Assembly (NCBI GenBank): GCA_964016885.1
Contig: OZ024749.1
Location: 16,678,001 to 16,742,000 of the forward strand
From: Eledone cirrhosa
Lineage: Eukaryota
Length of the DNA: 64,000 bases
Direction: 5' to 3'
Shown: positions 15,480 to 48,972 of the stretch, piece after piece
How positions within the stretch are numbered: the stretch's first letter is position 1
How the letters are laid out: every line of letters starts with the position of its first letter
Notes under the pieces: generated by a model
Databases searched by the model: none
Seen by the model: only the letters and a program-made list of their open reading frames with translations
Told to the model about the DNA's origin: nothing
Translations under genes and position numbers: made by a program

Positions 15480-15835
15480 AATCAGAGCAATAAACAAAAC
15501 AGGTTATATCAGTTGCTCCAAATATCCCGTGACCGCATGGTGTGATATCGCTGTTTCACCACAGTGAAACACGTCTGGTCGCATCAACACACCAACGAGC
15601 AACGATCGTTGCTGTACACTACGGCTTAATACGGGATGTTTGTTTACAAACACTCCGAGCATTATAATAAATGTTCGGTGAATCCATACGTACATATATA
15701 TATGTGTGCATGTATGTATATATATATACATACTACTGTATGTCTGTATACATATATGTATGTACGTGTACATACTTATATTTAAGTAACAGCCGTACTA
15801 AGAGTGGGAAATGAAATTTCGTTTCATTTTTCCTG
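15480..15835 (+). mobile_element. Divergent single copy (variant C) of the hammerhead/retrozyme-like structured repeat
   Basis: Shares the TTTA-loop hairpin, long TA-rich hairpin, closing stem TACGGCT/AGCCGTA and 3' GAAATGAAATTTCGTTTCATTTTT with 41.8-42.2 kb; ribozyme core degenerate. Confidence 0.65.
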
Positions 15836-16096
15836 TTTATATATATATATATATACATATATATATATATATATATATATATATATATATATGTATATAT
15901 TACACAAAGAGAAATGTGTTACACGGTGAGAAGTGTGTAAAGAATTATTACAAGTGATTTTACCGTTACTGTATAGGGAACAATATCTACAGGTAAGCAA
16001 TTAAATAGAAAACCAGATCAGAATCAAATCTCTGGATTGGAATTTTAAATCACAAACCTTATAACTATATTTTGCTGATACGAACCTAGCTTCGTT

Positions 16097-16305
16097 TCAC
16101 CACTTATATGTGTCACCACTTATATGTGTCACCACCTATATGTGTCACCACTTATATGTGTCACCACTTATATGTGTCACCACCTATATGTGTCACCACT
16201 TATATGTGTCACCACTTATATGTGTCACCACCTATATGTGTCACCACTTATATGTGTCACCACTTATATGTGTCACCACCTATATGTGTCACCACTTATA
16301 TGTGT
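16097..16305. repeat. 16-bp minisatellite (CACCACYTATATGTGT)x~13
   Basis: Direct inspection; C variant recurs every third unit (48-bp higher-order repeat). Confidence 0.95.
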
Positions 16306-17149
16306 AGTATAACAGTCAACATGGATCATCAGTCAGCAAAATGTGAGACTGAACACTGCACATCTACGGTAGATATAAGTGGTTTCGCAGTTCTTCTGCT
16401 TTTCAAAAGTAGAGTTGAGATGGAGGGTCTGTGGTTTTTCTCACATCTGGTTGGTCTCTGAATGTTACTTGTTTTATATGTATATATATATATATATGTA
16501 TATATATATATATATGTATATATATATATATATATATATATATATATATATATATATATATACACACATATATATATATATATATATATATATATATATA
16601 TATATATATATATATATATATATATATATATATATATACACACACATATATATATATATATATATATATATATATATATATATATATATATATATATATA
16701 TATATATATACACACATATATATATACAAACATAAATTATCGAGATTCGCATTTCGGCCCACGAAGTAACGAAAAACAACCTCCGAGATGTGCGGCAAGT
16801 GCTCAATGATTCAGATGAACCAGAGCTATAACAAACGTTAAAGGCCAAACACACCGAGACGATGGTTAAACAATCATTCGCATAGCCAAAAAAAAACGAT
16901 GAAGTAATTCGGGTATTGAAATTTTACCTGGACCCCTGGAAGGTTGGTAAAATTCAGTATATGGGTTTCTGCGGCTCCTAAATCAAGTACCGTCCGCTTA
17001 CTTAAATAATGTCAGGCTTCTGGTAAGATGATTGAACAAGGAAGCCACTTTCTCAACAGGTTTTAGTTCAATGTTAATACAAGGACTGACTATTGCTGAC
17101 CCCACGTGGGGATCGGCAAGGGAGGCAACCCCTATATCAGGCGAATGAA

Positions 17150-45829: not shown

Positions 45830-45874
45830 AATATTGCTGATGAGTTGTAACAACAACGAAACTAGTTCAATATT
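45830..45874 (+). ncRNA. Type I hammerhead ribozyme (representative of 12 copies)
   Basis: AATATTG CTGATGA GTTGT aaca ACAAC GAAA CTAG TT CAATATT: 7-bp stem I, 5-bp stem II, intact core, palindromic minimal stem III, GUU site. Confidence 0.9.
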
Positions 45875-46203
45875 CCTTGTCTGGCTTTCTGGAGAATAGA
45901 GGAAAGGTGTTTCCTCAAAAACCAGTATGACTCTAAAAACCGGTTTGTCTGTGTGTTTACATACAGAATAGCTGGCCACTCACAGTAAAGTGACCAGTGA
46001 AAAAACTTGGTACATCTACATATGTATACGTGTGTGTATTCATATACATACTAGTATTTCAGTATACATATATGGATGTACATCTTTAACTTAATTGTTT
46101 AAGCGTCAGTCATACAAAAGTGAGTTACAAACGAAACGAAATTTAATTTCGTTTCGTTATTTGTTTTTATCGTCTCCGTTGAACCGGTACTTACTCACAC
46201 TCT

Positions 46204-46251
46204 ATGCAAATTAGTCTGCCCACTACTAATTTTCATAGAAAAAGCATATAA
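46204..46251 (+). promoter_or_regulatory. Putative snRNA/U6-type promoter module (octamer + PSE-like + TATA-like), one per monomer
   Basis: ATGCAAAT at 46204-46211, TAATTTTCATAG from 46227, ATATAA; same motifs and spacing in variant B (42261-42308). Confidence 0.5.
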
Positions 46252-48972
46252 CGATATGTGCTTTTACGATTCTCTAGAGAGGCCGGAAGATAGGTAAATA
46301 TTGCTGATGAGTTGTAACAACAACGAAACTAGTTCAATATTCCTTGTCTGGCTTTCTGGAGAATAGAGGAAAGGTGTTTCCTCAAAAACCAGTATGACTC
46401 TAAAAACCGGTTTGTCTGTGTGTTTACATACAGAATAGCTGGCCACTCACAGTAAAGTGACCAGTGAAAAAACTTGGTACATCTACATATGTATACGTGT
46501 GTGTATTCATATACATACTAGTATTTCAGTATACATATATGGATGTACATCTTTAACTTAATTGTTTAAGCGTCAGTCATACAAAAGTGAGTTACAAACG
46601 AAACGAAATTTAATTTCGTTTCGTTATTTGTTTTTATCGTCTCCGTTGAACCGGTACTTACTCACACTCTATGCAAATTAGTCTGCCCACTACTAATTTT
46701 CATAGAAAAAGCATATAACGATATGTGCTTTTACGATTCTCTAGAGAGGCCGGAAGATAGGTAAATATTGCTGATGAGTTGTAACAACAACGAAACTAGT
46801 TCAATATTCCTTGTCTGGCTTTCTGGAGAATAGAGGAAAGGTGTTTCCTCAAAAACCAGTATGACTCTAAAAACCGGTTTGTCTGTGTGTTTACATACAG
46901 AATAGCTGGCCACTCACAGTAAAGTGACCAGTGAAAAAACTTGGTACATCTACATATGTATACGTGTGTGTATTCATATACATACTAGTATTTCAGTATA
47001 CATATATGGATGTACATCTTTAACTTAATTGTTTAAGCGTCAGTCATACAAAAGTGAGTTACAAACGAAACGAAATTTAATTTCGTTTCGTTATTTGTTT
47101 TTATCGTCTCCGTTGAACCGGTACTTACTCACACTCTATGCAAATTAGTCTGCCCACTACTAATTTTCATAGAAAAAGCATATAACGATATGTGCTTTTA
47201 CGATTCTCTAGAGAGGCCGGAAGATAGGTAAATATTGCTGATGAGTTGTAACAACAACGAAACTAGTTCAATATTCCTTGTCTGGCTTTCTGGAGAATAG
47301 AGGAAAGGTGTTTCCTCAAAAACCAGTATGACTCTAAAAACCGGTTTGTCTGTGTGTTTACATACAGAATAGCTGGCCACTCACAGTAAAGTGACCAGTG
47401 AAAAAACTTGGTACATCTACATATGTATACGTGTGTGTATTCATATACATACTAGTATTTCAGTATACATATATGGATGTACATCTTTAACTTAATTGTT
47501 TAAGCGTCAGTCATACAAAAGTGAGTTACAAACGAAACGAAATTTAATTTCGTTTCGTTATTTGTTTTTATCGTCTCCGTTGAACCGGTACTTACTCACA
47601 CTCTATGCAAATTAGTCTGCCCACTACTAATTTTCATAGAAAAAGCATATAACGATATGTGCTTTTACGATTCTCTAGAGAGGCCGGAAGATAGGTAAAT
47701 ATTGCTGATGAGTTGTAACAACAACGAAACTAGTTCAATATTCCTTGTCTGGCTTTCTGGAGAATAGAGGAAAGGTGTTTCCTCAAAAACCAGTATGACT
47801 CTAAAAACCGGTTTGTCTGTGTGTTTACATACAGAATAGCTGGCCACTCACAGTAAAGTGACCAGTGAAAAAACTTGGTACATCTACATATGTATACGTG
47901 TGTGTATTCATATACATACTAGTATTTCAGTATACATATATGGATGTACATCTTTAACTTAATTGTTTAAGCGTCAGTCATACAAAAGTGAGTTACAAAC
48001 GAAACGAAATTTAATTTCGTTTCGTTATTTGTTTTTATCGTCTCCGTTGAACCGGTACTTACTCACACTCTATGCAAATTAGTCTGCCCACTACTAATTT
48101 TCATAGAAAAAGCATATAACGATATGTGCTTTTACGATTCTCTAGAGAGGCCGGAAGATAGGTAAATATTGCTGATGAGTTGTAACAACAACGAAACTAG
48201 TTCAATATTCCTTGTCTGGCTTTCTGGAGAATAGAGGAAAGGTGTTTCCTCAAAAACCAGTATGACTCTAAAAACCGGTTTGTCTGTGTGTTTACATACA
48301 GAATAGCTGGCCACTCACAGTAAAGTGACCAGTGAAAAAACTTGGTACATCTACATATGTATACGTGTGTGTATTCATATACATACTAGTATTTCAGTAT
48401 ACATATATGGATGTACATCTTTAACTTAATTGTTTAAGCGTCAGTCATACAAAAGTGAGTTACAAACGAAACGAAATTTAATTTCGTTTCGTTATTTGTT
48501 TTTATCGTCTCCGTTGAACCGGTACTTACTCACACTCTATGCAAATTAGTCTGCCCACTACTAATTTTCATAGAAAAAGCATATAACGATATGTGCTTTT
48601 ACGATTCTCTAGAGAGGCCGGAAGATAGGTAAATATTGCTGATGAGTTGTAACAACAACGAAACTAGTTCAATATTCCTTGTCTGGCTTTCTGGAGAATA
48701 GAGGAAAGGTGTTTCCTCAAAAACCAGTATGACTCTAAAAACCGGTTTGTCTGTGTGTTTACATACAGAATAGCTGGCCACTCACAGTAAAGTGACCAGT
48801 GAAAAAACTTGGTACATCTACATATGTATACGTGTGTGTATTCATATACATACTAGTATTTCAGTATACATATATGGATGTACATCTTTAACTTAATTGT
48901 TTAAGCGTCAGTCATACAAAAGTGAGTTACAAACGAAACGAAATTTAATTTCGTTTCGTTATTTGTTTTTAT

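What the first reader, a model, noticed from the sequence alone, without database searches (positions are those of the whole stretch)
15480..48972. Three divergent variants keep the same multi-stem RNA fold with compensatory changes
Seen in A (467-bp unit), B (41807-42280) and C (15480-15835), in the same order. Closing stem: GTATGACT/AGTCATAC, GTATGGCA/TGCCATAC, TACGGCT/AGCCGTA. TTTA-loop hairpin: CTGTGTG/CATACAG, GTTTG/CAAAC, TGTTTG/CAAACA. A second hairpin: TGGCCACT/AGTGACCA, AGCGACG/CGCCGCT, CCGAGCAT/ATGTTCGG. Then a long TA-rich hairpin, a small CTTA..TAAG hairpin, and a terminal GAAA(C/T)GAAATT..TTCGTTTC hairpin. Stem I also covaries (AATATTG/CAATATT, AACGGTG/CATCGTT, GTGACCG/TGGTCGC). 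Inference: selection acts on RNA structure beyond the ribozyme, for example RT recognition or circle stability.
Basis: seen in the sequence. Interest (0 to 1): 0.8.

Follow-up and report, generated by a model that had tools for sequence, protein, structure and literature searches.

The report
Ribozyme retroelements with conserved RNA fold
These are three relatives of a very abundant animal retroelement that carries a hammerhead-ribozyme motif; its predicted RNA fold is kept by paired mutations and frames the two fixed points where copies end, which likely mark where a borrowed reverse transcriptase starts copying it.

Summary
The fold is real; one detail is wrong. A, B and C belong to a non-LTR retrozyme superfamily (type I hammerhead, units of 420-540 nt in A/B/C, 40,453 core matches against 3 for the control). 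Six lineages were recovered. The long-range closing stem is paired in 87 of 88 cells over 11 representatives, with 8 two-sided changes on the tree (0 of 10,000 simulations reach it). G-U pairs favour the ribozyme strand. The long TA hairpin and the terminal hairpin are missing in two lineages, so they are not core. New here: all 117 unambiguous (TA)n-joined 3' ends fall at two sites, one on each side of the closing stem's 3' strand, none at the ribozyme cut; a further covarying helix encloses the second site. With head-to-head arms and TA targeting, this is the two-start 'tail' signature of Penelope-like elements, and a young Penelope-like family in this genome shows it too. Best reading: the fold positions a Penelope-like reverse transcriptase acting in trans (0.72). 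Circle versus linear template, cleavage and expression are untested.

The parts
15591..15839 (+). 5'-truncated copy of lineage C: closing stem 15620-15626 with 15791-15797, hairpins 15637-15652 and 15655-15678, TA hairpin, small hairpin, terminal hairpin 15808-15826; ends at site 2, joined to (TA)n; no ribozyme
41694..41806 (-). inverted, truncated arm of B; ends at site 1, joined to (TA)n 41586-41693
41807..42280 (+). lineage B unit (474 nt): hammerhead core from 41875, predicted cut after 41905 (GUA), closing stem 41959-41966 with 42171-42178, octamer near 42262
42281..42396 (+). partial second B unit up to the ribozyme core, then a jump to the last 19 nt before site 2, joined to (TA)n
43476..45751 (-). 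left arm of the A array, 4.9 units of 467 nt; ends at site 1, joined to (TA)n
45752..45763 (.). 12-nt spacer between the two head-to-head arms
45764..48972 (+). right arm of the A array, 6.9 units; ends at site 2, joined to (TA)n
46286..46357 (+). type I hammerhead in one A unit (Rfam HH9, 37.7 bits, E 6e-8, below the gathering score 52); 2-nt palindromic loop 3; predicted cut after 46334 (GUU); stem I continues as a long interrupted helix
46392..46582 (+). closing stem P1 (46392-46399 with 46575-46582) enclosing hairpins 46416-46433 and 46440-46463, the TA hairpin and the small hairpin; site 1 lies at about 46563-46568
37090..41586 (-). neighbouring broken Penelope-like element (ORF 39418-41567, two stops and a frameshift; own hammerhead-like motif near 37172); B sits in the TA run at its truncated 5' end; its terminal repeat is unrelated to A, B and C

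Best explanation
A, B and C are non-coding tandem retroelements with a type I hammerhead motif and a covarying predicted fold, and that fold likely positions a Penelope-like reverse transcriptase, borrowed in trans, at one of two internal start sites. Shown: hammerhead motif, tandem units, paired changes, two fixed 3' ends joined to (TA)n, head-to-head arms, Penelope-like families with open frames or near-identical copies in the same genome. Inferred steps: (1) an internal promoter that includes the conserved octamer drives multimeric RNA; (2) the hammerhead, probably as a dimer because loop 3 is a 2-nt palindrome, releases monomers whose ends are held together by the long stem I and can be ligated to circles; (3) the Penelope-like protein binds the multibranch domain closed by P1 and P0; (4) its GIY-YIG nuclease nicks (TA)n, the DNA end pairs with two or three bases of the RNA and synthesis starts in the small-hairpin loop (site 1) or just behind the terminal hairpin (site 2); (5) priming on both target strands gives head-to-head arms, and running along a multimer or round a circle gives tandem units. 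Lineages that keep the fold are copied further, which explains the paired changes without any host function.
For: Core pattern 40,453 matches against 3. P1: 87 of 88 cells paired, 6 of 8 pairs with two-sided change, 8 coincident changes on a tree built from another region, best of 10,000 simulations 83. Blind MAFFT alignment: 92.2% of 319 cells paired, 40 two-sided cells, 0 of 500 shuffles, slid controls 28-47%. P0 changes G-C to A-U on both sides between C (52 matches) and B or C' (53 matches), and its strands also pair in D, E and G (read). Of 243 de-duplicated 3' alignment ends, 138 join (TA)n; 21 lie in the internal TA hairpin and are ambiguous; the other 117 fall at site 1 (55) or site 2 (62), none at the ribozyme cut (8 of the 117 were assigned from the printed context). 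Contigs of run X1 show TA loose ends at the same two places, 46568 and 46637. A young Penelope-like family has two fixed TA-joined ends about 88 nt apart in 26 of 30 loci. Pieces of that family lie next to B, BC or C' copies in 5 loci, once with no TA spacer at site 2 (L090), and 4 of 29 independently found loci of it carry a retrozyme within 1.7 kb. Frangieh 2024 (PMC11167929) shows two internal starts and nicking of AT-rich DNA on both strands in vitro.
Against: No binding, cleavage, circularisation or expression was measured; no RNA run was listed. Neither Penelope-like family inspected carries the A/B/C ribozyme or closing-stem motifs in its terminal repeat, so the partner is not identified by homology. 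Neighbourhood with it may reflect shared TA targets, and the systematic junction count was not completed. The closing stem had pair probability 0.03 in one G copy. For D, E and G the 3' strand of P1 was placed by motif, partly with knowledge of the pairing, because MAFFT misaligned it. The test for number of covarying pairs was weaker (36 of 500 shuffles) and the count of further pair types was below the shuffles. Craig 2021 ascribes the tail to nuclease resolution rather than RT start.
Confidence: 0.72

Rival explanations
1. The fold is selected mainly for RNA processing and survival (ribozyme folding, ligation, circle stability); the two fixed ends come only from short TA-like words that pair with the nicked target.
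For: Units fold as compact circles with 64-71% of bases paired in 7 of 7 units and the ends held by stem I. Both sites are followed by TA-like bases. Retrozyme circles are abundant in coral, mussel and axolotl (PMC7229834). Alternating variants in two arrays (L028, L068) would fit a dimeric circle.
Against: Other short TA runs in the unit, such as the hairpin loop upstream of the ribozyme, carry none of the 117 ends. The sites keep their place relative to P1 in A, B, C and D although the sequence is 46-60% identical. In the window's array both innermost units share a variant absent from the other ten segments, which fits a linear multimer better than a monomer circle.
Confidence: 0.14
2. The fixed ends are made at DNA level: the nuclease recognises or cuts a folded cDNA or terminal-repeat DNA, and the conserved stems act in single-stranded DNA.
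For: Craig 2021 (PMC8557442, passages) attributes the tail to nuclease resolution; Frangieh 2024 cites a tail requirement for nuclease recognition in D. virilis. P1 also forms on the opposite strand in 10 of 16 folds (probability 0.81 or more).
Against: Strand bias toward the ribozyme strand: 96 G-U pairs against 55, and 3 single A-C mismatches against 17, summed over 8 units; z is stronger on that strand in 7 of 8 (units are related). In PAc the genomic ends coincide with RT starts measured in vitro (PMC11167929).
Confidence: 0.09
3. The paired changes are a mutational by-product: template switching repairs quasi-palindromes, and TA repeats are self-complementary anyway.
For: Template switching can create compensatory changes in hairpins (PMC8794818, passages). 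These elements fold back often. The TA hairpin varies in length and is absent in D and G.
Against: P1 strands lie 72-254 nt apart and change one pair at a time on short branches (B1 to B2); G-U intermediates persist; the strand bias is not expected. It probably does explain the TA hairpin and part of the short hairpins.
Confidence: 0.05

Closest known systems
Metazoan non-LTR retrozymes (Cervera and de la Pena 2020, PMC7229834; abstract, passages and sections 14 and 17 read)
   Same: Type I hammerhead in low-GC tandem units, thousands of copies, no coding frame, highly paired predicted circle, Penelope-like elements in the same genome.
   Different: Units of 420-540 nt against about 170-400; the parts read give single-sequence folds, leave the priming mode open and name no fixed start sites or cross-lineage covariation outside the ribozyme.
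Retrozymes as non-autonomous Penelope-like elements (Li, Clavereau, Pollet 2026, bioRxiv 10.64898/2026.07.22.740005; parts 1-3 of 5 read, supplements closed)
   Same: Same class and same proposed partner.
   Different: Their evidence is co-occurrence and terminal-repeat homology, mostly in vertebrates; here no homologous terminal repeat was found, and the link rests on insertion anatomy.
Poseidon PAc of Anolis (Frangieh 2024, PMC11167929; parts 1-2 of 4 read)
   Same: Two internal RT starts downstream of the hammerhead, AT-rich target, both strands primed, RNA needed beyond the start site.
   Different: PAc is autonomous and its binding motif lies in the ORF; the starts are 30-40 nt apart against about 55-70 nt in A, B and C.
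Penelope-like elements with C-terminal nuclease, Neptune-like (Craig 2021, PMC8557442; passages)
   Same: Partial tandems, inverted 5'-truncated arms, tail, microsatellite bias; the neighbour ORF has a cysteine linker before a GIY-YIG region.
   Different: A, B and C encode no protein. The clade name rests on the linker seen and recall, not on a tree.
Newt satellite 2 (cited in PMC2220036 as having an snRNA-type promoter; the original paper was not held)
   Same: Hammerhead tandem repeat with an internal promoter; an octamer is conserved here in all lineages.
   Different: That its promoter uses an octamer is recalled; promoter activity was not tested here.

Membership tests
non-LTR retrozyme | type I hammerhead core with stems I-III in each unit | tested here: met
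   (HH9 E 6e-8, below gathering score); absent from the truncated window copy of C
non-LTR retrozyme | short, low-GC tandem repeats in many copies | tested here: met
   467, 466-538 and 420 nt units, GC about 0.35, 40,453 cores
non-LTR retrozyme | no protein-coding frame | tested here: met
   no frame of 120 aa or more inside the A array or C; shorter frames not examined
non-LTR retrozyme | self-cleavage of the RNA | not testable with these tools
   core intact; A has a GUU triplet, B and C GUA
non-LTR retrozyme | expressed as linear and circular monomers | not testable with these tools
   no RNA holder listed; only contigs of unknown kind could be laid
non-LTR retrozyme | target-site duplication | tested here: inconclusive
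   both flanks are (TA)n, so a duplication cannot be read
Penelope-like insertion mode | inverted 5'-truncated arm and partial tandems | tested here: met
   A and B in the window, and several of the 11 loci printed
Penelope-like insertion mode | two fixed 3' ends (tail) away from the ribozyme cut | tested here: met
   117 of 117 unambiguous TA-joined ends
Penelope-like element (autonomous) | RT plus GIY-YIG ORF | tested here: not met
   A, B and C have none; they are non-autonomous
terminal-repeat derivative of a local Penelope-like family | homology to its pLTR | tested here: inconclusive
   not seen in the two families inspected; other families not surveyed

The most novel reading that the evidence does not exclude
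The P1/P0 multibranch domain is a defined, covariation-supported RT-docking element, analogous to the template-positioning scaffold of telomerase RNA, by which a 40,000-copy ribozyme RNA family hijacks a telomerase-related Penelope-like protein that shares no sequence with it; start sites are set by structure, not by the ribozyme-made end.
Probability: 0.4. Interest if true: 0.75.

Novelty: new member of a known kind. Interest (0 to 1): 0.55.

Why it matters
How animal retrozymes are primed and which enzyme moves them is stated as open in both papers on the class. This family supplies what a test needs: mapped start sites, two long-range helices with natural compensatory variants, short lineages that define the minimal fold, and Penelope-like families with open 710-aa frames in the same genome. 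A compact RNA module that sets internal RT starts on (TA)n would also bear on the telomerase-Penelope link and on RNA-templated insertion tools. I found no report of this fold or these ends in searches (open-access library only).

Tried and rejected
Rfam at gathering thresholds: 0 matches in the window; at E-value level only the hammerhead is credible, the microRNA hits fall on self-complementary TA stretches far below their cut-offs. DNA search with B gave no candidates, not even itself (the tool skips very common words), so patterns were used. First idea that the neighbouring ORF is a Naiad: dropped, its nuclease region is C-terminal. Idea that B is the terminal repeat of that neighbour: rejected, 20 other copies printed have a different upstream repeat. 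Pfam gave no family for the intact 710-aa frame and only a weak GIY-YIG hit for another remnant; the Atlas gave clusters carrying GIY-YIG, RVT_1 and HTH_animal at 0.96-0.99. MAFFT plus RNAalifold failed to recover P1 across all lineages. No RNA holder listed; contig depth was not used. Lineage F (L094, L121 and others) shares octamer and hammerhead but I saw no P1 domain in it, so it was left out. Several pattern hits were chance or unrelated ribozymes (L071, L074, L078, L083, L095, L107, L117). G ends were not counted because the query contained the end. Earlier scan findings: none returned. A systematic count of direct retrozyme-to-Penelope junctions and a fold of the Penelope terminal repeats were not completed, so the partner remains a candidate.

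Full report
Setting. The window is C9:16678001-16742000 of a 3.0-Gb animal genome with C2H2 zinc-finger arrays, LINE remnants and long TA runs. These features recall an octopus genome; that is recall, not a test.

Observation. All 30 strands looked up from the finding are present at the stated places. A is a head-to-head array of 467-nt units, 4.9 on the minus strand and 6.9 on the plus strand. B is one 474-nt unit with a partial second unit and an inverted arm. C is only 15591-15839: its best genome matches start at query position 112, the pairwise alignment to a full unit starts there, and no hammerhead core lies in it. A and B carry type I hammerheads (Rfam HH9 at E 6e-8, below gathering).

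Family. The shared core pattern has 40,453 matches against 3 for the reversed control. Octamer plus core with another loop 3 adds 2,706 against 0. From about 300 fetched stretches I recovered lineages A, B, C, D, E and G with sub-lineages. Over the octamer-to-P1 region A1 and A2 are 90% identical, B and C sub-lineages 82-95%, and the main lineages 40-69%. All share one order: octamer, short hairpin, long interrupted stem I around the ribozyme, a hairpin, then a multibranch domain closed by P1. D and G lack the long TA hairpin and the terminal hairpin; E copies are old and mostly incomplete.

Covariation. On a blind MAFFT alignment of 18 copies, 20 pairs in P1 and the two inner hairpins are paired in 92.2% of 319 cells; 0 of 500 shuffles reach that, or the 40 two-sided cells, or the covariation score; 36 of 500 reach the 9 covarying pairs; slid partners give 28-47% (D and G have gaps at the P1 3' strand). 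The shuffle ignores kinship, so I mapped P1 on a tree from another region: 11 representatives, 87 of 88 cells paired, all 8 changes on the 3' strand coincide with a change on the 5' strand, and independent columns with the same numbers of changes reach at most 83 in 10,000 runs. For D, E and G the 3' strand was placed by motif, a caveat. Folds are far more stable than shuffles. The ribozyme strand has 96 G-U pairs and 3 single A-C mismatches, the opposite strand 55 and 17, over 8 related units, which points to RNA rather than DNA palindromes. Old copies of D and G carry unpaired changes, as expected if selection acts on source elements and inserted copies decay.

Where copies end. Of 243 de-duplicated 3' alignment ends, 138 join (TA)n. 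Twenty-one lie in the internal TA hairpin and cannot be told from length variation. The other 117 fall at site 1, the loop of the small hairpin just before the P1 3' strand (55), or site 2, just behind the terminal hairpin and inside P0 (62); none is at the ribozyme cut (first pass). Of the 105 ends not joined to TA, 5 lie within 5 nt of the cut; most others look like divergence or inversion points and were not classified. The loci were found with queries that do not contain these ends. Run X1 shows TA loose ends at the same two places, though it may not be independent of the assembly. In the window A and B each use site 1 on the left arm and site 2 on the right; C uses site 2.

Partner. The broken element at 39418-41567 belongs to a family with many open frames (710 aa in 5 of 5 loci translated) and its own terminal repeat with a different hammerhead; B landed in its TA flank. 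A second, younger family (99-100% identical hits) has two TA-joined ends about 88 nt apart in 26 of 30 loci. It lies next to B, BC or C' copies in L056, L090, L137, L144 and L160, in L090 with no spacer at site 2, the junction expected if one enzyme jumps between templates. Four of 29 loci found through it also hold a retrozyme; shared TA targeting could give this. The partner is a candidate only.

Circle or line. In the window's array ten segments are identical, but the innermost unit of both arms shares one change, and the left arm's 5' end has four more: this fits two primings on one linear multimer. Arrays L028 and L068 alternate variants every second unit, which fits a dimeric circle or dimer amplification. 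The question stays open.

Comparison. The class is known (PMC7229834), its Penelope link has been argued (bioRxiv 2026.07.22.740005), and two internal RT starts were shown for an autonomous element (PMC11167929). What I did not find in print is a covarying domain outside the ribozyme tied to mapped ends in a non-autonomous retrozyme. Supplements were not read and may hold related folds.

Verdict. Interest 0.55.

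Noticed in passing
window 61522-63436: 5'-truncated Penelope-like ORF (+) preceded by an inverted arm with another hammerhead (core near 61605, minus strand) and an octamer-like word, ending in (TA)n; a third family or terminal repeat.
   Followed up: no
window 37090-39418 (-); L211, L216, L217, L219, L222: The neighbouring Penelope-like family has a 3' region of over 1.3 kb made largely of TG/TA repeats, shared between copies, with a second, degenerate hammerhead-like motif (near 39026) ahead of the terminal one (near 37172).
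   Followed up: partly
L225-L254: The young Penelope-like family has no canonical hammerhead core in its terminal repeat; a near-core with one change lies about 55 nt before its first end.
   Followed up: partly
L094, L121-L123, L126, L129-L131, L133: Old lineage F: octamer and hammerhead as in A-G but a different downstream region; copies also seem to end in TA runs.
   Followed up: no
L093, L101, L113, L120: Lineage D carries three to four octamer-like words in tandem upstream of the ribozyme.
   Followed up: no
L124, L125, L127: Three lineage E copies carry the same SINE-like insertion at or beside the second hairpin, suggesting it was carried by a source element.
   Followed up: no
G000:C1:5738327-5752443 and C3:12272007-12293688: Long arrays: 32 A-type cores (31 minus, 1 plus) and at least 36 B-type cores of variable spacing.
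   Followed up: partly
L008: A C-lineage arm is joined without TA spacer to the ORF of yet another Penelope-like family.
   Followed up: no
window 9738-12486, 21987-22832, 27555-28007: Three C2H2 zinc-finger arrays; LINE remnants at 452-4620 (-) and 51050-56800, interrupted by TA runs; further Penelope-like remnants at 17132-18614 (-) and 34271-35860 (-).
   Followed up: no
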